Shown here: piece by piece, positions 1,339-7,538 of the stretch
Numbering within the stretch: position 1 is the first letter of the stretch
Layout of the letters: each line of letters begins with the position of its first letter
Virus record (IMG/VR): IMGVR_UViG_2529292734_000008
Coordinates: 1-7,538 of that record
Length of the DNA stretch: 7,538 bases
Reading direction: 5' to 3' (one strand)
Source: a virus
Lineage: Duplodnaviria > Heunggongvirae > Uroviricota > Caudoviricetes
The notes under the pieces: generated by a model
Seen by the model: only the letters and a program-made list of their open reading frames with translations
What the model was told of the DNA's origin: nothing
The model's database searches: none
Position numbers and translations under genes: made by a program

Positions 1339-1449
1339 TAGAACTCCGTCTAATTTAGAAGGAGCTCTAATTTAGTCTGCAAGGAGCAGGTGTTACAGAC
1401 GGCATTGGCTTTACGCTTACGATTATTCATACTTCGTTTCTCCTCTTGA

Positions 1450-1839
1450 TCAGGCGGCTGCACCCGCCGTTTTCTCGTACTTACTGATAGTGATCTCGAC
1501 CTTCCCTTCCGGGATAACCGGTCCCCACTCCACCAGCATTCTTTTCACCTGACTGTCGTCTTCCCACACCCCCGCGTGGGTCAGGGCGTCAAACAGCGCC
1601 TTGTTATAGTTGTCCAGATCGCGGATCCTGTTATCCGGAGGAAACAACACGATCTCCACTGAAGCAGGTGCCGACGTTGGTTTCGGCAGACGACGTAACT
1701 GCTCAACTATTGCTGCGCACGCCGCGCTCTGGAATTTTCGCCCCGCCGCGCTTATCAGGCTCTTACCAGCAAACGCCCCTTTGTTGGGGTGTCGCCAGTA
1801 CGTGTTCACGCTGGGCGGAAAAGGCAGGATCAGCTTCAT
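1450..1839 (-). CDS. rusA: RusA-family Holliday junction resolvase (crossover junction endodeoxyribonuclease), lambdoid nin-region type
   Basis: 129-aa ORF with PPSVNTYWR...RIRDLDNYNKALFDALTHAGVWEDDSQV, resembling the RusA signature including the acidic RDLDN motif. Its ATG overlaps the stop of the upstream gene (ATGA). Confidence 0.85.
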   Translation of the reverse strand: MKLILPFPPSVNTYWRHPNKGAFAGKSLISAAGRKFQSAACAAIVEQLRRLPKPTSAPASVEIVLFPPDNRIRDLDNYNKALFDALTHAGVWEDDSQVKRMLVEWGPVIPEGKVEITISKYEKTAGAAA

Positions 1840-2162
1840 ACTTTCAGGCCCCTCTCATGTAACCAGTGGGTTGCACGCAGCCTTGCGTTTTCCTCACCGG
1901 CAAGCAGTGAGCGGATAATCCCGACCGCCTCGCTGTCGTCGTCCTTCACCGCGGTATGAAGCGTGATGCCCCGGGCCACGCCACGCTTTATCGTGATGAC
2001 GCCTTTTTTCTCCAGTGCGCGAAGATGCTCCACCGCTGCATTCACTGAACGGTATCCCAGCATGGTTGCCACCTCCTGATTGGTTGGCGGGAAGCCACGT
2101 TCTTTCTGATAAGAAATCAGCATATCCAGCACCTGCTGCTGGCATTGAGTTAACGTCGTCAT
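1836..2162 (-). CDS. LexA-like DNA-binding protein (LexA N-terminal winged-HTH domain only, no S24 peptidase domain)
   Basis: 108-aa ORF MTTLTQCQQQVLDMLISYQKERGFPPTNQEVATMLGYRSVNAAVEHLRALEKKGVITIKRGVARGITL aligns by eye with E. coli LexA residues 1-70 ([69 protein letters not shown]). The protein ends about 35 residues later with no Ser/Lys protease module. ATGA overlaps at both ends. Confidence 0.75.
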   Translation of the reverse strand: MTTLTQCQQQVLDMLISYQKERGFPPTNQEVATMLGYRSVNAAVEHLRALEKKGVITIKRGVARGITLHTAVKDDDSEAVGIIRSLLAGEENARLRATHWLHERGLKV

Positions 2163-2812
2163 GCCGCCATCTCCCTGACCAGTTTTTCTGCCTGCTGGCG
2201 AACCTGCGCCAGAAAGGCCTCACCACATGCCTCAAGTTCATCGCGCCCGATGTAGCTGATTGCCGGTCCCTTCCAGGTCTTGTCGAAAACAGCAATAGCA
2301 CCAGCGAAGAAAGCGCCTGTCGGCACCTGCTTCTCATCCTTCGGGATAAACCAGGCAGGCAGTTCAAAACCAATACGCCCGCGAATAAAAGCAATATGAT
2401 CTGCATCTTCCGGCCACCACACTTCGCTGGTGGCAGCTTTGATCAGGAAAACATAGCGCCCGCCTTTATCACGCATGGCACTGGCATGCTTCATGATGTA
2501 ACGCATGCCGGTGATGTATTGCCCCTCATGCTGGCTGGCGCGGCTGTATGGGGGATTACCAAAGGCAGCACCTTTAAGCTCCGCAAGGCGTTCTGACCAG
2601 TCATGCGCCAACGCGTTGTCTTCCGCCGTGTAATACGCAGCACATTTGGCGTTATCACCGTCAGTAAACAGATCCAGAACAAACGGGCCAAACAGAGTGT
2701 TAATTCCCCAGAAAATGTTGTCCGGCGTGCGCCACTGATCGCCCACTTCCTTCAGTTCATGGGCTGGTTTGTTCCGCAGTTCCGCCAGCGCCTGGCAATA
2801 TTTATTACTCAT
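2159..2812 (-). CDS. Phage N6-adenine DNA methyltransferase (Dam-like orphan MTase)
   Basis: ORF contains the motif-IV sequence FGNPPYS (NPPY) and an overall phage N-6-adenine MTase-like sequence. The likely start is ATG 2812-2810, overlapping the upstream stop as TAATG, with GGGGG just upstream. The ORF track extends to a GTG at 2845. Confidence 0.8.
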   Translation of the reverse strand: MSNKYCQALAELRNKPAHELKEVGDQWRTPDNIFWGINTLFGPFVLDLFTDGDNAKCAAYYTAEDNALAHDWSERLAELKGAAFGNPPYSRASQHEGQYITGMRYIMKHASAMRDKGGRYVFLIKAATSEVWWPEDADHIAFIRGRIGFELPAWFIPKDEKQVPTGAFFAGAIAVFDKTWKGPAISYIGRDELEACGEAFLAQVRQQAEKLVREMAA

Positions 2813-3306
2813 TAAGCCCCCACGTAATTCCCTGAGAGATACCACTCTTCACCTGATGCAGCCCGCTTACTGCTTTTCCGTAAACACAGTTCACGACGTG
2901 CCAGAAAATTGTTTCGTTCTGGCTGGGAGTGGCTTTCACGGAATGCCGCCATCCACACCGTTGCAGCACGACGGTATAAGCCCCTGGACTCCAGTTCTTC
3001 CGCCTGGCGGGTCAGGCACAAAATCACCCGCGGGTCGTTAGTGCCGACATAGAAATTGCGCACAGGTCTGGTTTCACGAACTGGTTGTGGTTCCGGATCC
3101 TGCGCTCTCTCAGTCAGGCGCGGGAAATGTCTGTGTGTATCTCCTTCACAACGGTGAGCCACACGCCCACTCTGACGTAACTTGCTTGCTGACTGCAGAA
3201 CGCGCTGCCGTGAGTAACCTGCAAAAGCATCCGCAATGTCTCCGGAAGTACAGCCCGGATGGGCTTCAATGAATTTCTGAACGTCATTCAAAAGACTCAT
3301 GCTCAC
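2812..3306 (-). CDS. Phage regulatory protein, winged-helix-like N-terminus with PerC-like C-terminal region (putative)
   Basis: 164-aa ORF translationally coupled at both ends (ATGA with the replication gene stop; TAATG with the MTase start). The C-terminal segment LESRGLYRRAATVWMAAF resembles the conserved core I recall for PerC/Pch-family activators; this assignment is from memory and is tentative. Confidence 0.55.
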   Translation of the reverse strand: MSMSLLNDVQKFIEAHPGCTSGDIADAFAGYSRQRVLQSASKLRQSGRVAHRCEGDTHRHFPRLTERAQDPEPQPVRETRPVRNFYVGTNDPRVILCLTRQAEELESRGLYRRAATVWMAAFRESHSQPERNNFLARRELCLRKSSKRAASGEEWYLSGNYVGA

Positions 3307-4244
3307 CCCCTGAATCCTGCCGGGATCTGGCTGTAGTCCACATTGTCGTAACTGGCTTTGAAGTACGGGTCTTCGCGTTTTTCTGTGTACGTGCTGACGG
3401 ACGGCGATAAGCGCAGGGAAAGCTCATCCCATTTTTCCCGCAGCTTCGACGGGCTGAGCACGTTACGGCACCAGAACGGATCGCGGCTGACGCGGCTGTA
3501 CATCTCGCAGATTTGTTTGTGAGTACGACCATCCTGCACACACATCAGGCGAATTTCGTTTGCCCAGGCTGTCCAGTTCGGTTCTTTGGGACGAACCACC
3601 TCGCCGTCACATTCGGCAGCCTGCTCGTACAGGGCGATGATTTTTTTCCAGAGCCACTGTGCGCAGGTCAAATCATCCTGCGTCCCCCACTGGCGCTTTT
3701 TAGGGCTGAATACAACCGCATCAGGATGGCGAGTTAAAAAATCCTGTTCAGCCGTCTGCGTGTCCGGTTGCGAAGCGTCCGGACGAGAAGGTTTTTTATC
3801 TGACGGATCATGTTTTGATTTTACTGACGGATCCCCGCCAGATTCTGACGGGTGAAAACCCGCTTTTTTGCCAGATTTCGACGCATCAAATTTTGACGGG
3901 TCAGATTTTGATGCGTCAGATTTTGACGGGTCAGAATCTGACAGTTGAGAAAATGCCGCTGCCTGAAGCTTCGCAACGTTAAGCTGATAAACATTCGACG
4001 CATTGCGGTTACCCTGGCGACGCGCCTTACGCGTTAACCAGCCTTCTGCTTCCAGCCGTGCGATAGCCGTTCTGACGGTACTCATCCCCGCGCCAATCTG
4101 ACGGGCAATGGTTTCAATTGATGGCCAGCACACACCTTCGTCATTACTGAAATCAGCCAGGCGGGCCATAATTGCCACGCTGGATAACTTCATGCCTGAT
4201 GCAGCGCAACCATCCCATACATAGCCGGTTAATTTAGTGCTCAT
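3303..4244 (-). CDS. Phage replication initiation protein (lambda O-like function): N-terminal HTH DNA-binding domain, low-complexity linker, C-terminal domain
   Basis: 313-aa ORF. The N-terminus ([70 protein letters not shown]) is typical of phage replication-initiator HTH domains. The central linker SDSDPSKSDASKSDPSKFDASKS is encoded by tandem DNA repeats. SD GAGGT lies 5 nt upstream of the ATG. Confidence 0.8.
   Translation of the reverse strand: MSTKLTGYVWDGCAASGMKLSSVAIMARLADFSNDEGVCWPSIETIARQIGAGMSTVRTAIARLEAEGWLTRKARRQGNRNASNVYQLNVAKLQAAAFSQLSDSDPSKSDASKSDPSKFDASKSGKKAGFHPSESGGDPSVKSKHDPSDKKPSRPDASQPDTQTAEQDFLTRHPDAVVFSPKKRQWGTQDDLTCAQWLWKKIIALYEQAAECDGEVVRPKEPNWTAWANEIRLMCVQDGRTHKQICEMYSRVSRDPFWCRNVLSPSKLREKWDELSLRLSPSVSTYTEKREDPYFKASYDNVDYSQIPAGFRG
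3798..3950. repeat. Putative replication origin: about 8 iterons with 10-bp core TGAYGSRTCA inside the replication-initiator gene
   Basis: Core copies at about 3801, 3825, 3846, 3880, 3895, 3910, 3925 and 3940, the last four at exact 15-bp spacing (GATTT-TGACGGGTCA). Flanking T-rich tracts at 3791-3797 and 3864-3869. The position matches the lambda arrangement where ori lies within the O gene linker. Confidence 0.6.
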
Positions 4245-4592
4245 GACCGACCTCTATTTCCCTGAATTTACGACGAAACTGTTCGAGCGGACTGAAGCAT
4301 TCATGCTCATAACCTTCGCGGAGGTAGATAACCCGTTGTGTTTCCGGCTCCCAACGAATGACTCTGACGGGCACTCCGTAGTGATCTTTGAACCAGCGGT
4401 TAACTTGTCGCAAAGGACTGTCTCCTTCTGCCGGTTGAAATCACCCACAGCCCACTCTGCAAAGCTGTGGGTTACAATTTCCCTGTCACCTGGTACATTC
4501 ACTGCATAGCAATATTCCACCTTCGCTTTTCCACCCGGAACAGGAAGCGCAATCAGTTGCGAGCGACGGTAGTGTGTTGTTAAACTGTTCAT
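4234..4592 (-). CDS. Hypothetical phage protein, apparently frameshifted (N-terminal part in one frame, protein-like C-terminal part in another)
   Basis: The track ORF 4592-4254 starts [51 protein letters not shown] and then degenerates into a Ser/Thr-rich tail. From 4440 down to TAA 4236-4234 a second frame encodes [68 protein letters not shown]. The start overlaps the upstream gene stop as ATGA. Confidence 0.5.
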
Positions 4593-4957
4593 GCGTTAGT
4601 TTCTCCACAGTCACGACACGCCACGGCGCCCGGAGCTGCACACTCGCGGGCGTCATTACTTTCTGAAATGCAAAAAATTTTGTAGACCAGTGCTGCATGC
4701 TCCTGCAGCTTCGAAATTGAGAGGTAGAGCTCGTCATTAATTGCTGTCTTCTCATGCGGTTCCACTACACCGTCTTCGATTGCTGAACGAATCTGTTTTG
4801 AATAACTGCCGATCTGTTCAATGACTTCCAGCAGACGCTGGTTAATATCGGCGTTGTCCACATCCTCGACGTCAGGAAGAGACACAAAGACGCCATTTGC
4901 AGACTGCGCCACAGCATCAGCAATGAAGTGAGTTCCACCAGCACGTTGCAAAATCAT
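4589..4957 (-). CDS. Hypothetical phage early protein (122 aa, predicted helical)
   Basis: ORF with ATG at 4957. Its stop overlaps the downstream gene start (ATGA at 4592-4589). It lies between the cII-like and replication genes in the same operon. No family recognised. Confidence 0.55.
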
Positions 4958-4978
4958 TGCCCATCCCAGCGGGAAAAT

Positions 4979-5185
4979 CTAATCGCCATCGGCACGAAGG
5001 CGGTTAAATAATGCGTTCTCTGTTACATCCAGCCAGTCAGCAGCTTCAGCGTAACCCCCCGGCAACGCTGCGATAGTTTTTCTGACAGCTTTCACGTACC
5101 ACTCAGGCTGTTTGTCTACTTTCCAGTGATGCTTACCCACGGTTAGCCTCATCGTTCTGTGGTTTCTGTTAATCGATTTATCCAT
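4979..5185 (-). CDS. CII-like / YdaT-like HTH regulatory protein (putative), ending at an amber codon
   Basis: HTH-like segment GYAEAADWLDVTENALFNRLR at the C-terminus, in the position of lambda cII (immediately downstream of cro). The start is uncertain: ATG 5185 overlaps the cro stop, with alternatives at 5197 and 5152; none has a strong SD. The ORF ends at TAG 4981-4979. Confidence 0.45.
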   Translation of the reverse strand: MDKSINRNHRTMRLTVGKHHWKVDKQPEWYVKAVRKTIAALPGGYAEAADWLDVTENALFNRLRADGD

Positions 5186-5378
5186 TAGATTTTTCATAAA
5201 GCTCAGGTTTAAATGGCAACCGTCCGCAAGTTCTATATGCAGCTTCTGCTGCACGTCCTTTTGGAATTAACTGGCCCGGACGGTTTCGCCACTGATAAAC
5301 GGCTTCAGTTGTTATGCCGAAAAAAGCAGCAACTTTCTCAATACTGCCGAAGTAGCTTTCGATATCGTCAGTTGTCAT
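5178..5378 (-). CDS. Cro-like transcriptional regulator (small HTH protein)
   Basis: 66-aa ORF MTTDDIESYFGSIEKVAAFFGITTEAVYQWRNRPGQLIPKGRAAEAAYRTCGRLPF with an HTH motif (VAAFFGITTEAVYQWR). SD GGAGGG lies just upstream of ATG 5378. It is transcribed divergently from the repressor gene. Confidence 0.7.
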   Translation of the reverse strand: MTTDDIESYFGSIEKVAAFFGITTEAVYQWRNRPGQLIPKGRAAEAAYRTCGRLPFKPELYEKSNG

Positions 5379-5388
5379 ACGCCCTCCA

Positions 5389-5455
5389 AACTAAGTTTTA
5401 TTAGATGCTAATTACAAATCTATCTTTGGTCAATAAAAACTAAGATTACTTAGTA
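5389..5455. promoter_or_regulatory. Divergent immunity control region (OR-like): two 14-bp inverted-repeat operator candidates and a PR-like promoter for cro
   Basis: CTAAGTTTTATTAG (5391-5404) and CTAAGATTACTTAG (5440-5453; perfect 5-bp arms CTAAG/CTTAG). On the minus strand, -35 TTGACC (5433-5428), a 17-bp spacer and -10 TAGCAT (5410-5405) precede the cro ATG. The first operator overlaps the -10/+1 region. Confidence 0.55.
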
Positions 5456-5475
5456 ATTAAAGAAATGGTGCTCCT

Positions 5476-5985
5476 ATGGAAACGGTTGGTCAGCGTATAA
5501 AAGCTCTGAGAAGAGTTACCAGAACGTCCCAGAAAGAATTGGGTAAATTTTGTGGAGTAAGCGACGTTGCTGTGGGGTACTGGGAGAAAGACATCAATAC
5601 CCCTGGTGGGGAGGCACTTTCGAAATTAGCGAAGTTCTTCAATACGTCAATAGATTACATTCTTTATGGTGCTGAGTTTGAAGGCAAACTCGTCACAAAC
5701 ATGCGCAGAGTTCCTGTAATATCGTGGGTTCAGGCTGGGCAGTTTACTGAGTGCAGGGCAGCAGAAGTGTTTAGTGAAGTGGACAAGTGGGTAGATACAT
5801 CATTAAAGATTGGTGATAACTCATTTGCATTAGAGGTTAAAGGTGACTCCATGACTAACCCTAATGGCCTCCCAACAATACCAGAAGGCGCAACAGTGAT
5901 TGTAGATCCAGATGCAGAACCTCGTCATGGAAAAATAGTCATCGCTCGACTTGATGGAACAAACGAAGCTACAGTAAAAAATTAG
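5476..5985 (+). CDS. CI-type prophage repressor (XRE HTH + LexA-like S24 peptidase domain), truncated by a frameshift; remaining C-terminal codons continue in another frame to 6101
   Basis: N-terminal HTH (QKELGKFCGVSDVAVGYWEKD) and S24 catalytic Ser motif GDSM. The ORF ends ...ARLDGTNEATVKN*. The adjacent frame encodes KKLVIDGPQKFLVPLNPRYPNIPINGNCLIIGVVKGVQYEL* (to TAA 6099-6101), which matches the lambda CI C-terminus pattern [35 protein letters not shown]. The break is in the A6 run 5976-5981. Confidence 0.85.
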   Translation: METVGQRIKALRRVTRTSQKELGKFCGVSDVAVGYWEKDINTPGGEALSKLAKFFNTSIDYILYGAEFEGKLVTNMRRVPVISWVQAGQFTECRAAEVFSEVDKWVDTSLKIGDNSFALEVKGDSMTNPNGLPTIPEGATVIVDPDAEPRHGKIVIARLDGTNEATVKN

Positions 5986-6115
5986 TCATCGATGGCCCTC
6001 AAAAGTTTTTAGTGCCATTAAATCCTCGGTATCCCAACATCCCTATCAATGGTAATTGCCTTATCATTGGTGTAGTCAAAGGAGTTCAATACGAACTCTA
6101 AGACCTCTCTTCTCT

Positions 6116-6183
6116 AACTAAGGCACCGAACTAAGAAAAGTTTGGTGTTTTCTCTTGCCATAATAACTAAGTTAAGTTAGATT
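6116..6183 (+). promoter_or_regulatory. OL/PL-like element: repeated AACTAAG half-sites, a 14-bp operator-like site and a sigma70-like promoter pointing rightward
   Basis: AACTAAG at 6116-6122, 6129-6135 and 6165-6171. CTAAGTTAAGTTAG at 6167-6180 matches the OR motif. -35 TTGCCA (6155-6160), 17-bp spacer, -10 TAGATT (6178-6183). Confidence 0.45.
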
Positions 6184-6261
6184 TTATGTCAAAGATAACG
6201 AACAGGCAGGACGCCCACGAAGTAGCCGCCTGGGGCATATGAAGTCCAGGATGATTCGTTA

Positions 6262-6290
6262 GCAACAAAAAAGCGCCCTACAGGACGCTT
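6262..6290 (-). terminator. Intrinsic terminator-like hairpin with U-tract, minus-strand sense
   Basis: Minus-strand RNA would read AAGCGUCC-UGUA-GGGCGCUU followed by UUUUUUGUUG (stem 6271-6290, A-run 6267-6272 on plus). On the plus strand the same hairpin has a C-A mismatch and no downstream U-tract. Confidence 0.5.
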
Positions 6291-6291
6291 A

Positions 6292-6303
6292 GCTCTTTAA
6301 CAA
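6292..6303 (+). promoter_or_regulatory. boxA-like antitermination element (12/12 match to the rrn-type boxA core GCTCTTTAACAA)
   Basis: GCTCTTTAACAA at 6292-6303, immediately after a hairpin and about 45 nt upstream of the ATG of the first plus-strand gene downstream of the PL-like promoter. A weak AU-rich hairpin CAAGTAACTGATAACTTG follows at 6319-6336. Confidence 0.45.
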
Positions 6304-6348
6304 TCTGGTCCCCATCAACAAGTAACTGATAACTTGAGGAGATGTGAA

Positions 6349-6555
6349 ATGCACAAAACAGAACCCAAAATCGTCGCGCCTGGCTACACAGATGAGGAAA
6401 TTTATGAGTGGATGACAAAGAAGCTGGCAGCTATAAACCAGCTTCGTGAAGTGCTGTCTTATCGACAGGAAACAATAGACTCCTTAAAAAAACTGGATCA
6501 GGAAATCACGGTTTTATCACAGGATGTTACTTTAGATATTGTGCAGACAAATTAG
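6349..6555 (+). CDS. Hypothetical small protein (68 aa), first gene of the rightward PL-like transcript; AT-rich accessory gene
   Basis: ATG at 6349 preceded by a strong SD GAGGAG (6336-6341). The track ORF begins at an earlier in-frame ATG at 6334. The translation MHKTEPKIVAPGYTDEEIYEWMTKKLAAINQLREVLSYRQETIDSLKKLDQEITVLSQDVTLDIVQTN is predicted helical and acidic. No family recognised. Confidence 0.6.
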   Translation: MHKTEPKIVAPGYTDEEIYEWMTKKLAAINQLREVLSYRQETIDSLKKLDQEITVLSQDVTLDIVQTN

Positions 6556-6961
6556 GATCCCATTCATTTTCGTCAAAATCATCAAAGTGATGAATTTGTG
6601 ATCTCCAGTCTCGATAATCTAAAAATTTCTGGGCGGTTACGCTTATTTTATCAAGTGTGAGTTCATCCTGAATTGAAAGAAGAAGTTCATCAAATTTCAT
6701 CTCATTAATCTGTTTTGGCATCCAGTGATGCTTCATCAGAATAAGGTGAACCAGAGCCTTTTTCCCATTCAACTGATTATAGGGAGTGCCGAATTTCTTC
6801 CGGTGCTCATGTAAGACAAGGTCCAAAAGAGTAAGTAATGTTGCCCTTGATTCAACTTTGCTTATTTCGACTGATGACACTACCCCACTGATTTCAATGC
6901 CCCGATACTTTCCAACATTTTCACAGTGGGATTTGTACAGCGTATAGATATTACCGGACAT
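6527..6961 (-). CDS. Hypothetical protein (144 aa), moron-like accessory gene transcribed convergently to the PL-like operon
   Basis: ORF with SD AAGGA (revcomp of plus 6962-6975) upstream of ATG 6961. The region looks AT-rich compared with the flanking phage backbone. Its 3' end overlaps the 68-aa gene by 29 bp. No family recognised. Confidence 0.7.
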   Translation of the reverse strand: MSGNIYTLYKSHCENVGKYRGIEISGVVSSVEISKVESRATLLTLLDLVLHEHRKKFGTPYNQLNGKKALVHLILMKHHWMPKQINEMKFDELLLSIQDELTLDKISVTAQKFLDYRDWRSQIHHFDDFDENEWDPNLSAQYLK

Positions 6962-6976
6962 TTCTTTTCCTTTTGC

Positions 6977-7028
6977 GTTGTTGGGGATAACCAGATTAAC
7001 CGAATCCTTGTTGTTGGGGAATAACCAG
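6977..7028. repeat. Two 18-19 bp direct repeats GTTGTTGGGGA(A)TAACCAG separated by about 15 bp, in the upstream region of the 144-aa gene
   Basis: Copy 1 at 6977-6994 and copy 2 at 7010-7028, nearly identical, located 16-67 bp upstream of the minus-strand ATG at 6961. Confidence 0.5.
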
Positions 7029-7245
7029 GTCCACCTCGCCTGATGTGGCTAAAAGCAGGCACATAACAGCTAAGTATTTTCAACCAGAGAGAATCCTTAG
7101 CGTTGTGGTGAATGCGGCTCAGCGCACGCGGGTTAAGGTTGAGGCTGACAGTCGACCTTCTGTGGATACCCACCCGCCTGGTGTGCAACCTTCGCCAGGC
7201 ACCGGGAGGCACCCGGCACCACAACTTTATGCTGTGTGTAGTCTT

Positions 7246-7292
7246 GGCGGTACCAGCTTGTACCCTTGCTTCCGGCTGGTACCGTCCTTTTT
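7246..7292 (+). terminator. Rho-independent terminator-like hairpin (10-bp perfect stem CGGTACCAGC/GCTGGTACCG, 17-nt loop, T5 tract)
   Basis: Stem 7248-7257 pairs with 7275-7284, followed by TTTTT at 7288-7292 on the plus strand. Confidence 0.6.
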
Positions 7293-7297
7293 ACAAA

Positions 7298-7379
7298 ACA
7301 GAGAAGAGCATCACCGGACGACGGGCTCATAACCCAATCCATCCGGGCGGCAGTCACCGCAGGTGTTCTTCTCTGTTTT
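7298..7379 (+). other. Long-range helix (about 15 bp including G-U pairs) enclosing about 49 nt, followed by a UUU run; structured leader element
   Basis: 7298-7312 pairs with 7362-7376 (ACAGAGAAGAGCATC / GGTGTTCTTCTCTGT). It lies about 50 nt upstream of the next gene's ATG. Confidence 0.35.
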
Positions 7380-7429
7380 GTGGAGAAACTAACCGACCTT
7401 GCAGGGTCGATATGATGAGGAGCAGCAAA

Positions 7430-7538
7430 ATGGCTAGCGAACGCAGTACTGATGTGCAGGCATTTATCGGGGAGCTGGACGGCGGCGTATTTGAAACCAA
7501 AATCGGCGCAGTTCTCAGTGAAGTCGCTTCCGGTGTGA
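7430..7538 (+). CDS. Hypothetical protein, 5' partial view (continues beyond window end)
   Basis: ATG 7430 with SD GAGGAG (7417-7422) 8 nt upstream. Translation MASERSTDVQAFIGELDGGVFETKIGAVLSEVASGV... is open to the window end. No family recognised. Confidence 0.55.
   Translation, partial: MASERSTDVQAFIGELDGGVFETKIGAVLSEVASGV

What the first reader, a model, noticed from the sequence alone, without database searches (positions are those of the whole stretch)
1836..2162. Prophage-encoded LexA mimic: LexA DNA-binding domain without the autocleavage domain
The 108-aa protein closely resembles the LexA N-terminal winged-HTH, including the recognition-helix region SVNAAVEHLRAL versus [12 protein letters not shown], but it lacks the S24 Ser/Lys peptidase domain. 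If it binds SOS boxes it would not be removable by RecA-stimulated cleavage, so it could modulate the host SOS response or prophage induction. It is co-transcribed with the MTase and rusA.
Basis: partly seen in the sequence, partly recalled or inferred. Interest (0 to 1): 0.6.

Follow-up and report, generated by a model that had tools for sequence, protein, structure and literature searches.

The report
Phage LexA-type DNA binder without protease
A very common E. coli prophage gene encodes a small protein that copies the DNA-binding half of the SOS repressor LexA but lacks the self-cleaving half; databases already list it, nobody has tested it, and whether it really sits on SOS boxes remains open.

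Summary
Window 1836-2162 (minus strand) is an intact 108-aa ORF. Residues 1-65 are a full LexA DNA-binding domain (Pfam E=2.9e-19; model 1.0 Å from DNA-bound LexA). There is no S24 peptidase domain. Four-base ATGA overlaps couple it to Dam and RusA in the pR operon of a lambdoid prophage.

It is not new as an object. RefSeq calls it "LexA family transcriptional regulator", it is PHROG 362, and it occurs in 2233 of 5426 complete E. coli genomes. A truncated phage LexA homologue has also been characterised: GIL01 gp6, an activator with its own site.

What I add:
- A conserved C-terminal helical hairpin (residues 75-103), absent from LexA and gp6, which I infer dimerises the protein.
- Very strong purifying selection on the winged helix (pN/pS 0.03).
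- Four of the five published LexA contact residues are kept. E44 is hydrophobic in all 17 aligned members, and R28 is never kept.
- No SOS box in this window or its prophage.
- An apparent link to SOS boxes in related phages disappeared under a control.

The "uncleavable SOS-box mimic" idea is plausible (about 0.4) but untested. Moderate interest.

The parts
1836..2162 (-). CDS of the 108-aa LexA-domain-only protein (RefSeq WP_000210170.1-type 'LexA family transcriptional regulator', PHROG 362)
   Evidence: ORF; PF01726 E=2.9e-19; phrog_362 E=1.1e-59 over the full length; RefSeq annotation in the 99.9%-identical prophage of strain D6
1968..2162 (-). Codons 1-65: LexA-type winged helix-turn-helix domain
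   Evidence: Pfam match 1-65/65. AF2 model elements are H6-22, H28-35, H40-52, E56-58 and E66-68. Foldseek top hit is 3jso (LexA-DNA complex), rmsd 1.0 Å over 68 columns at 50% identity. pN/pS for residues 1-69 is 0.03
2007..2048 (-). Codons 39-52: recognition helix SVNAAVEHLRALEK (LexA: [14 protein letters not shown])
   Evidence: Alignments. S39, N41, A42 and E45 match the published LexA contact residues, while E44 is V and P40 is V (contact list from PMC3091678)
1959..1997 (-). Codons 56-68: beta-hairpin wing, with R64-G65-I66 invariant in the family and identical to LexA
1839..1940 (-). Codons 75-108: family-specific C-terminal helical hairpin (H75-88, H93-103), proposed dimerisation module. 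Residues 78-90 still align with the LexA hinge and Ala84-Gly85 cleavage-site region
   Evidence: AF2 block pLDDT is about 88-90 for residues 81-100 and the linker 71-75 is below 50. The tail is conserved in members only 38-47% identical, with A97 and L101 invariant and positions 82, 83, 86, 87 and 100 hydrophobic. No Pfam match for the last 39 residues (70-108) scanned alone. pN/pS is 0.29. TIGR00498 alignment reaches profile position 91
2159..2812 (-). Phage N6-adenine DNA methyltransferase (Dam). Its stop overlaps the LexA-like start codon (ATGA)
   Evidence: PF05869 E=1.2e-45; TIGR01712 at 255 bits; RefSeq coordinates transferred; overlap read
1450..1839 (-). RusA Holliday-junction resolvase. 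Its start overlaps the LexA-like stop codon (ATGA)
   Evidence: PF05866 E=6.1e-15; phrog_34; overlap read. It is adjacent to the LexA-like gene in every listed E. coli hit
2812..3306 (-). PerC-family regulator (yfdN), upstream gene of the same conserved module
   Evidence: PF06069; annotation. It co-occurs with the LexA-like gene in 55/60 and 48/51 loci selected by cI type
5405..5433 (-). pR-like sigma-70 promoter (TTGACC-17-TAGCAT) just upstream of cro. It is the only promoter-like site on this strand upstream of the operon
   Evidence: cro is at 5178-5378

Best explanation
The gene encodes a small sequence-specific DNA-binding protein descended from a lexA gene. It keeps the LexA winged helix-turn-helix and a remnant of the hinge and cleavage-site segment. 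It has lost the S24 protease and dimerisation domain. In its place it has a 34-residue amphipathic helical hairpin. I propose that the hairpin makes the protein a homodimer, and that the dimer recognises CTGT-type inverted half-sites, meaning SOS-box-like operators. Because it has no catalytic domain, RecA* cannot inactivate it. It is transcribed from pR with the replication, Dam and RusA genes, so it appears after infection or after induction. That is exactly when host LexA has been destroyed. Its most likely job is then to act as a RecA-proof stand-in for LexA that closes LexA-type operators again during lytic growth. Candidate targets are host SOS genes, LexA-gated genes of co-resident prophages, and the SOS-box-bearing modules that many related phages carry.

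Shown: fold, domain content, operon position, purifying selection, conservation of four of five contact residues and of the wing, and conservation of the tail.

Inferred: dimerisation, the operator sequence, repression, and the biological target.
For: - Domain and fold: PF01726 over the full domain, E=2.9e-19. AF2 model pLDDT 83.8, superposing on DNA-bound LexA 3jso at 1.0 Å.
- Contact residues: LexA contacts are S39, N41, A42, E44 and E45 (PMC3091678). The protein has S39, N41, A42, V44 and E45, and wing residues R64-G65-I66 are identical to LexA. S39 is invariant across 17 family members down to 38% identity. N41 is kept in 16 of 17 and E45 in 13 of 17.
- Tail: predicted with confidence as two helices and conserved in hydrophobic pattern across the family.
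- Need for a dimeriser: a LexA DNA-binding domain represses a LexA operator only when fused to a dimerising partner, about 975 versus 16 Miller units (PMC503385). A dimerising tail would therefore be sufficient to make a repressor.
- Selection: pN/pS is 0.03 in the winged helix and 0.29 in the tail, and 204 of 204 copies are intact.
- Operon position: ATGA overlaps with Dam and RusA, and no internal promoter-like or strong terminator-like site on the coding strand.
- Host range: tail-bearing relatives were found only in Enterobacteriaceae. From general knowledge, LexA in these hosts uses CTGT-N8-ACAG.
- Possible cis targets elsewhere: strong SOS boxes exist in many phages that carry the identical gene, for example 5 perfect boxes in mEp460 against 0.56 expected, plus recurrent extended-consensus boxes.
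Against: - No binding data exist, and I found no paper on this family.
- E44 is replaced by a hydrophobic or small residue in all 17 members, R28 is never retained, and P40 is V in the E. coli group. The specificity could therefore differ from LexA.
- Four distant members have lost E45: P0086, P0124, P0168 and P0242.
- The window has no perfect SOS box, and its four one-mismatch hits are at chance level, 4 against 2.9 expected. The matching D6 prophage has a single box, inside a tail gene.
- 36 of 80 loci with the gene have no strong box within 10 kb on either side.
- Co-occurrence with the SOS box inside cI is explained by module linkage. The gene is found in 56/60 loci with that cI type and in 47/51 loci with a box-free cI type.
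- The only characterised analogue, gp6, activates transcription at a site of its own.
- Dimerisation could not be modelled. The pTM of 0.57 leaves the position of the tail relative to the domain uncertain.
Confidence: 0.4

Rival explanations
1. It is a phage-specific transcription factor of the GIL01 gp6 type. The LexA-derived winged helix has drifted to an operator of its own somewhere in the phage genome. There it activates or represses a phage promoter, for example to time Q or late genes or a moron gene, with no meaningful action on the host SOS regulon.
For: gp6 sets the precedent: a 66-aa LexA-domain-only protein that activates P3 from its own site (PMC6182141), and it belongs to the same Pfam family. 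The family departs from LexA at positions 28 and 44 in every member, and some members vary at 40, 42 and 45. Its position in a tightly conserved early-operon module, PerC-(Dam)-LexA-like-RusA, suggests a phage-internal role. This prophage has no SOS boxes.
Against: No candidate operator was found. CTGT half-site pairs at spacings 0-20, whether inverted, everted or direct, are not enriched in the window or in the D6 prophage. The early operon is almost gap-free, leaving little intergenic DNA for a dedicated operator. S39, N41, A42 and E45 are kept in most members, which fits a retained LexA-like half-site better than a new one. There is no sequence similarity to gp6 beyond the shared domain.
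Confidence: 0.3
2. It is an accessory DNA-binding or architectural partner for the neighbouring DNA-transaction enzymes Dam and RusA, or for replication. It would bind DNA with little sequence specificity, or bind a partner protein through the tail, and would not act as a transcription factor.
For: RusA is adjacent in every listed E. coli hit, and the gene is translationally coupled to Dam and RusA. The more distant homologues also sit in the region between the replication genes and Q, next to RusA or DUF968/HNH genes. The tail has no known fold match and could be a protein-interaction module.
Against: RusA and Dam occur widely without this gene, and the gene occurs without Dam: Dam is found in 47/60 and 32/51 loci, against 56/60 and 47/51 for the LexA-like gene. 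The Klebsiella homologue has no annotated RusA or Dam nearby. The extreme constraint on the recognition helix and wing (pN/pS 0.03) argues for sequence-specific DNA reading.
Confidence: 0.12
3. It is a decoy or pseudo-substrate for the SOS proteolysis machinery. The retained hinge and Ala-Gly segment (residues 78-90) would dock into the active site of host LexA or of an S24-type phage repressor. It would then be cleaved in trans or would inhibit cleavage.
For: The TIGR00498 alignment runs to profile position 91, and DDSEAVGIIRSLLAGE aligns with LexA EEEEGLPLVGRVAAGE, placing A88-G89 on A84-G85. From my own recall of Kim and Little 1993, not checked here, intermolecular cleavage by LexA and lambda cI has been described.
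Against: G89 is replaced by N, R, C, E or D in 7 of the 17 aligned members, and by K in a further close homologue (P0028). A88 is replaced in 6 of the 17. In LexA, G85D abolishes cleavage (PDB 1jhf title). The segment is predicted to be helical, not a strand. The strongest selection falls on the DNA-binding domain and not on this segment.
Confidence: 0.05

Closest known systems
E. coli LexA (TIGR00498; PDB 1lea, 1jhh, 3jso)
   Same: The N-terminal winged helix-turn-helix is shared, with 43% identity over 90 aa and 1.0 Å rmsd to the DNA-bound form. The recognition helix is identical at 9 of 12 positions, including S39, N41, A42 and E45. Wing residues R64-G65-I66 are identical. A remnant of the hinge and Ala-Gly segment is retained.
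   Different: There is no S24 domain and so no Ser119/Lys156, which means no autocleavage, no RecA* response and no LexA-type dimer interface. It scores 70.8 bits against the 110.95 cut-off. E44 is V, P40 is V and R28 is N. It has a C-terminal helical hairpin that LexA lacks. It is encoded in a phage early operon and is not an autoregulated chromosomal gene.
Bacillus phage GIL01 gp6 (ORF6), the 'truncated homologue of LexA' (PMC6182141)
   Same: It is a temperate-phage protein consisting of a LexA_DNA_bind domain without a protease domain (PF01726 E=7.9e-14). It is encoded among early genes and is described as derived from host LexA.
   Different: gp6 is 66 aa, the winged helix only, with no tail. 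There is no detectable pairwise similarity to the window protein. It comes from a tectivirus of a Gram-positive host. It is experimentally an activator of late promoter P3, binding a site of its own, with K38 critical. The window protein keeps the gamma-proteobacterial LexA recognition residues and has never been tested.
Engineered LexA-DBD fusions (pSR658 with the SU101 reporter) and the natural LexA(1-84) cleavage fragment
   Same: The design logic is the same: a LexA DNA-binding domain that is inactive as a repressor alone and becomes a repressor of a LexA operator when any dimerising module is attached (PMC503385).
   Different: Those are laboratory constructs or a short-lived cleavage product. 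Here a natural gene carries a conserved appended helical hairpin, and its dimerisation is inferred, not shown.
PHROG 362 / RefSeq 'LexA family transcriptional regulator' (SfV orf42, mEp460 gp46, cdtI, SfII, SfIV, Stx2c and some Stx2a phages)
   Same: This is the same family. Identity is 95-100% in 50 phage records and in 2233 of 5426 complete E. coli genomes, with a full-length profile match.
   Different: Nothing differs in sequence. The family has a name by homology only. Annotations range from 'unknown' to the incorrect 'SOS-response repressor and protease LexA' and 'RecA-mediated autopeptidases'.

Membership tests
LexA repressor proper (NCBIfam TIGR00498 equivalog) | N-terminal LexA winged-HTH DNA-binding domain | tested here: met
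   PF01726 1-65/65 at 69 bits; Foldseek 3jso rmsd 1.0 Å
LexA repressor proper (NCBIfam TIGR00498 equivalog) | C-terminal S24 peptidase domain with the Ser/Lys dyad (Ser119/Lys156), which is also the dimer interface | tested here: not met
   The protein ends at residue 108. There is no PF00717 hit. The TIGR00498 match covers positions 1-91 of 203 only. rusA follows immediately
LexA repressor proper (NCBIfam TIGR00498 equivalog) | Whole-protein score above the curated cut-off | tested here: not met
   70.8 bits against a cut-off of 110.95
LexA repressor proper (NCBIfam TIGR00498 equivalog) | Conserved Ala-Gly autocleavage site | tested here: inconclusive
   A88-G89 aligns with A84-G85 in this protein. 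However, G89 is replaced in 7 of the 17 aligned members and by K in another close homologue, and no catalytic domain exists to use the site
LexA repressor proper (NCBIfam TIGR00498 equivalog) | Binds CTGT-N8-ACAG SOS boxes and represses the SOS regulon | not testable with these tools
   Indirect evidence only. Four of five contact residues are kept, and there are no boxes in the window
Pfam PF01726 LexA_DNA_bind domain family | Score above the gathering threshold over the whole domain | tested here: met
   69 bits against 23.7, profile positions 1-65/65
PHROG 362 (phage 'transcriptional repressor', about 106 aa) | Full-length profile match | tested here: met
   E=1.1e-59, residues 1-108 on profile positions 1-106/106
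PHROG 362 (phage 'transcriptional repressor', about 106 aa) | Location in the early-right ('nin') region of lambdoid phages, next to rusA | tested here: met
Truncated phage LexA homologues of the GIL01 gp6 type | Phage-encoded protein made of a LexA_DNA_bind domain with no S24 domain | tested here: met
Truncated phage LexA homologues of the GIL01 gp6 type | Sequence relatedness to gp6 beyond the shared Pfam domain | tested here: not met
   No BLASTP alignment at E<=100. gp6 is 66 aa and lacks the tail
Truncated phage LexA homologues of the GIL01 gp6 type | Direct activation of a late promoter from its own binding site | not testable with these tools
   A property of gp6 only (PMC6182141)

The most novel reading that the evidence does not exclude
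Prophages in about 40% of E. coli strains carry a RecA-proof LexA surrogate. It would be a natural 'LexA DNA-binding domain plus dimeriser' made from pR during lytic growth. It would re-occupy SOS boxes after host LexA has been cleaved. That would shut off host SOS functions such as mutagenic polymerases, RuvAB (a possible competitor of the co-encoded RusA), SulA and colicins. It would also shut off the LexA-gated antirepressors of rival prophages. The result would be phage control of the SOS regulon and of competition between prophages. In decayed prophages with a dead cI, as this window appears to be, the protein could be made constitutively and blunt the host's SOS inducibility.
Probability: 0.25. 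Interest if true: 0.7.

Novelty: new member of a known kind. Interest (0 to 1): 0.4.

Why it matters
If the protein does bind SOS boxes, a very common prophage gene could override the main bacterial DNA-damage switch in a way RecA cannot reverse. It is found in 41% of complete E. coli genomes and in Stx2c phages, some Stx2a phages, and the Shigella serotype-converting phages SfV, SfII and SfIV. Such an override would bear on SOS-dependent mutagenesis, antibiotic tolerance, Shiga-toxin phage induction and competition among co-resident prophages. If it instead binds its own site, as gp6 does, it becomes a second independent case of phages turning the LexA DNA-binding domain into a private regulator. 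Either answer is cheap to obtain, because the LexA-operator reporter strains for the key experiment already exist. In its present state it is an annotated gene of unknown function with a reasonable hypothesis attached.

Tried and rejected
1. SOS boxes in cis. The window has no perfect CTGT-N8-ACAG box, and one-mismatch hits are at chance level, 4 against 2.9 expected. The same prophage in strain D6 has one box, inside a tail gene.

2. Other half-site geometries. CTGT pairs at spacings 0-20, whether inverted, everted or direct, are not enriched in the window or the D6 prophage. Only N8 is enriched in mEp460.

3. Co-occurrence with phage SOS boxes. At first this looked striking. All 11 phage records with the SOS box inside cI also carry the gene, as do 56 of 60 loci selected by that cI type. 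The control removed the signal: loci with the box-free window-type cI carry the gene just as often (47/51), and PerC and RusA track it equally. I rejected this as evidence for a cis target. By count, distinct N8 boxes are also not enriched in about 417 kb of unique flanking sequence (10 against about 6.4 expected).

4. Trans-cleavage or pseudo-substrate idea based on the retained Ala-Gly. The Gly and Ala are not conserved in the family, so I gave this low weight.

5. Homology of the tail to a known domain. There is no Pfam hit. Foldseek matches beyond the winged helix are poor, with rmsd of 8 Å or more.

6. Dimer modelling. This was not possible. The structure tool takes single natural sequences only, and the fused relatives I inspected (P0121, P0001, P0175) are Dam, O-protein or unrelated fusions rather than tandem copies.

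7. Literature. Six searches found no experimental work on this family. The primary LexA-DNA structure paper is not in the library.

8. First attempt at the genome scan with the 17-sequence alignment failed for lack of a conserved stretch. I repeated it with 7 sequences.
Full report
**1. The observation**

The window contains an ORF at 1836-2162 on the minus strand. It starts with ATG, ends with TGA, and encodes 108 aa (sequence read). Pfam places residues 1-65 on the complete LexA_DNA_bind model, PF01726 positions 1-65 of 65, at 69 bits against a 23.7 cut-off and E=2.9e-19. There is no Peptidase_S24 hit.

The NCBIfam LexA equivalog aligns only to its positions 1-91 of 203 and scores 70.8 bits, below its 110.95 cut-off. 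BLASTP against E. coli LexA gives 43% identity over 90 residues. A search of PDB sequences returns the LexA chains 1lea, 1jhh and 3jso at E about 1e-15.

An AlphaFold2 model built on a 17-sequence family alignment has mean pLDDT 83.8 and shows the winged helix: H6-22, H28-35, H40-52, and strands at 56-58 and 66-68. Foldseek ranks the DNA-bound LexA structure 3jso first, with 1.0 Å rmsd over 68 columns at 50% identity.

Profile and fold searches do not place the protein in an unrelated winged-helix family.

**2. Genomic context**

The window is the early-right region of a lambdoid prophage. Positions 1421-7538 are 99.9% identical to a prophage at the argU tRNA/intD site of E. coli strain D6.

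Gene order on the minus strand is:
- cro (5178-5378)
- ymfL, a CII-like gene
- a DUF4222 gene
- an O-like replication initiator (3303-4244)
- PerC/yfdN (2812-3306)
- Dam (2159-2812)
- the LexA-like gene (1836-2162)
- RusA (1450-1839)

In D6 the order continues with KilA-N, DUF968, the Q antiterminator, and the lysis genes.

The LexA-like start overlaps the Dam stop, and its stop overlaps the RusA start, both as ATGA. The only promoter-like site on this strand is the pR-like TTGACC-17-TAGCAT upstream of cro. No strong terminator-like site lies between it and rusA. Co-transcription with Dam and RusA from pR is therefore well supported. It implies expression during lytic growth and not in a repressed lysogen.

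**3. How common and how well known it is**

The gene is present in 2233 of 5426 complete E. coli genomes, at one to four copies. RefSeq annotates it as 'LexA family transcriptional regulator/protein', and RusA is next to it in every listed hit.

It is also present at 95-100% protein identity in 50 phage records, including:
- SfV (orf42, 'unknown')
- SfII and SfIV
- mEp460
- cdtI
- all listed Stx2c phages
- some Stx2a phages

It matches PHROG 362, 'transcriptional repressor', over its full length. Some records wrongly call it 'SOS-response repressor and protease LexA' or 'RecA-mediated autopeptidases'.

More distant members, 38-51% identical, lie in the same region between the replication genes and Q in mEp390, Klebsiella phages and an Edwardsiella phage. 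Among one genome per GTDB species, tail-bearing relatives were found only in Enterobacteriaceae: Shigella, Citrobacter, Kosakonia, Enterobacter and Silvania.

Six literature searches found no experimental work on this family.

The concept is not new either. Bacillus phage GIL01 gp6 is published as 'a truncated homologue of LexA' that activates the late promoter P3 from its own binding site (PMC6182141). gp6 hits the same Pfam domain. However, it is only 66 aa and has no pairwise similarity to the window protein.

**4. What is distinctive: the tail**

After a low-confidence linker (residues 71-75), the model predicts two helices, 75-88 and 93-103, at block pLDDT of about 88-90. This segment has no Pfam match and no convincing structural neighbour.

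It is nonetheless conserved in family members that are only 38-47% identical. A97 and L101 are invariant. Positions 82, 83, 86, 87 and 100 are always hydrophobic, and 93 is Ala or Ser.

Residues 78-90 (EAVGIIRSLLAGE) still align with the LexA hinge and cleavage-site region (GLPLVGRVAAGE). This is why the TIGR00498 alignment reaches position 91. The gene therefore looks like a lexA truncated just after the cleavage site, with a short helix added.

Across 204 intact copies (114 alleles) in related loci, pN/pS is 0.12 overall, 0.03 for the winged helix and 0.29 for the tail. Both parts are under purifying selection, and selection on the DNA-binding domain is extreme.

**5. Bearing on DNA specificity**

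The published LexA contact residues are Ser39, Asn41, Ala42, Glu44 and Glu45 (PMC3091678). Numbering is collinear through residue 69.

The window protein has S39, N41, A42, V44 and E45. It also has V40 for P40, N28 for R28, and an identical R64-G65-I66 in the wing.

Across 17 family members:
- S39, R64, G65 and I66 are invariant.
- N41 is kept in 16 of 17.
- E45 is kept in 13 of 17.
- Position 44 is never acidic.
- Position 28 is never Arg.

I read this as retention of a LexA-like CTGT half-site with family-specific tuning. It is not proof of identical specificity.

A second requirement is dimerisation. In the standard LexA-based assay, the LexA DNA-binding domain alone leaves a LexA-operator reporter at about 975-1490 Miller units. 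Fusion to a homodimerising protein drops it to 16 (PMC503385). The conserved amphipathic hairpin is the obvious candidate for that role, but I could not model a dimer with the tools available.

**6.

The window has no perfect CTGT-N8-ACAG box. It has four one-mismatch matches against 2.9 expected by chance. The 30 kb of the matching D6 prophage has one perfect box, inside the tape-measure gene. No other half-site spacing or orientation is enriched.

Phage mEp460, which encodes an identical protein, has five perfect boxes against 0.56 expected. Two of them lie upstream of dinI.

In 80 IMG/VR loci with the same gene, extended-consensus boxes recur in several places:
- inside the linker-coding part of an mEp460-type cI
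- just after rusA
- at the start of a methyltransferase gene downstream of Q

All 11 phage records with the box inside cI also carry the LexA-like gene, and so do 56 of 60 loci selected by that cI type. I tested this with a control. Loci selected by the box-free, window-type cI carry the gene just as often (47 of 51), and PerC and RusA are equally frequent.

The association therefore reflects a conserved PerC-(Dam)-LexA-like-RusA module in this phage group. It is not a functional link to SOS boxes. These boxes remain possible targets, but host LexA explains them equally well.

**7. Most likely mechanism, and rivals**

I commit, at about 0.4, to the following. The protein is a homodimeric LexA-type operator-binding protein that RecA cannot inactivate. 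It is made from pR during lytic development and binds SOS-box-like sites once host LexA is gone.

The main rival, at about 0.3, is a gp6-style private regulator with a diverged site. Lesser alternatives are an accessory factor for the neighbouring DNA enzymes (about 0.12) and a pseudo-substrate for S24 proteases (about 0.05). The pseudo-substrate idea is weakened because the Ala-Gly is not conserved in the family.

Shown: fold, domain loss, operon position, conservation and selection. Inferred: dimerisation, operator sequence, the sign of regulation, and targets.

**8. Verdict**

It also omits the key dependency on the tail.

The object is already annotated and extremely common, and a characterised analogue exists. 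I file it as a new and uncharacterised member of the known kind 'phage-encoded LexA-domain-only regulators'. It is not a member of LexA proper, because the S24 domain and the score cut-off were tested and not met. Interest is 0.4.

**9. Side observations**

This copy of the prophage is decaying:
- cI carries a 1-bp deletion at about 5976, giving 169 aa where D6 has 208.
- ymfL has a nonsense codon at 4981.
- The end of an IS66-family ISEc47 element occupies positions 1 to about 1426, some 20-25 bp beyond the rusA stop.

The LexA-like, Dam and RusA genes remain intact.

Noticed in passing
window 5476-6101 (+), deletion at about 5976: The prophage cI repressor (HTH_3 plus Peptidase_S24) has a 1-bp deletion in an A-run relative to the 99.9%-identical D6 prophage. 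It is truncated to 169 aa where D6 has 208, losing the end of the S24 domain. This could be real decay or a homopolymer sequencing error. If real, pR and the LexA-like gene might be expressed constitutively.
   Followed up: partly
window 4589-5140 (-), position 4981: ymfL (a CII/CP76-like regulator) carries a nonsense codon at codon 54. The window has A where D6 has G on the plus strand. The gene is split into the two ORFs listed at 4589-4957 and 4979-5254.
   Followed up: yes
window 1 to about 1426: This is the end of an IS66-family element (ISEc47-like: tnpA, tnpB, and the start of the transposase gene). It is inserted some 20-25 bp downstream of the rusA stop and replaces the KilA-N/DUF968/Q continuation seen in strain D6. 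The early operon is therefore cut off from Q and the late genes.
   Followed up: partly
L004 (phage mEp460) 31972-31987, and all 80 loci L087-L166: A strong SOS box, within the 24-bp palindrome AATACTGTATGTAAAAACAGTATT, lies inside the coding sequence of the mEp460-type cI repressor. It sits in the linker between the HTH and S24 domains. A LexA operator inside a cI gene is odd, and I cannot explain it.
   Followed up: partly
L004 41023-41038; L004 23257-23272 and 23285-23300; L050, L063 and L067 about +766 nt and L071 +742 nt from the gene start (L025 has the same box at +2115): Other extended-consensus SOS boxes occur in related phages. One overlaps codons 4-9 of a DNA methyltransferase downstream of Q. 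A tandem pair lies upstream of phage dinI. One (TACTGTATTTATGAACAGTG) lies just after rusA in four loci. They suggest LexA-controlled accessory (moron) genes in this phage group.
   Followed up: partly
proteins P0132, P0133, P0149, P0152, P0156, P0163, P0186, P0211 (representative search): These proteins, 141-352 aa long, carry two tandem LexA_DNA_bind domains and no S24 domain. They could be single-chain pseudo-dimers of the LexA DNA-binding domain, a different route to a LexA-type binder that cannot be cleaved. Their taxonomy and context are unknown.
   Followed up: partly
window 2159-2812 (-), and phage RefSeq records: The Dam gene meets the curated N6-adenine methyltransferase models (PF05869, TIGR01712). 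Many RefSeq phage records nonetheless label it 'phosphoadenosine phosphosulfate reductase', apparently carried over from phrog_33262. This is probably an annotation error.
   Followed up: no
window 6710-6725 (+): A one-mismatch SOS-like box, CTGTTTTGGCATCCAG, lies inside the ECs1072-family phage gene (6527-6961, minus strand). It resembles, from my recall, natural boxes that end in CCAG. It is within chance expectation for the window, and a promoter-like hit overlaps it at 6715-6742.
   Followed up: no
window 1839-1940 (-), residues 78-90: The segment EAVGIIRSLLAGE aligns with the LexA hinge and cleavage-site region GLPLVGRVAAGE, including the Ala-Gly. This suggests the gene arose from a lexA truncated just after the cleavage site. 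The segment is now predicted to be helical.
   Followed up: partly
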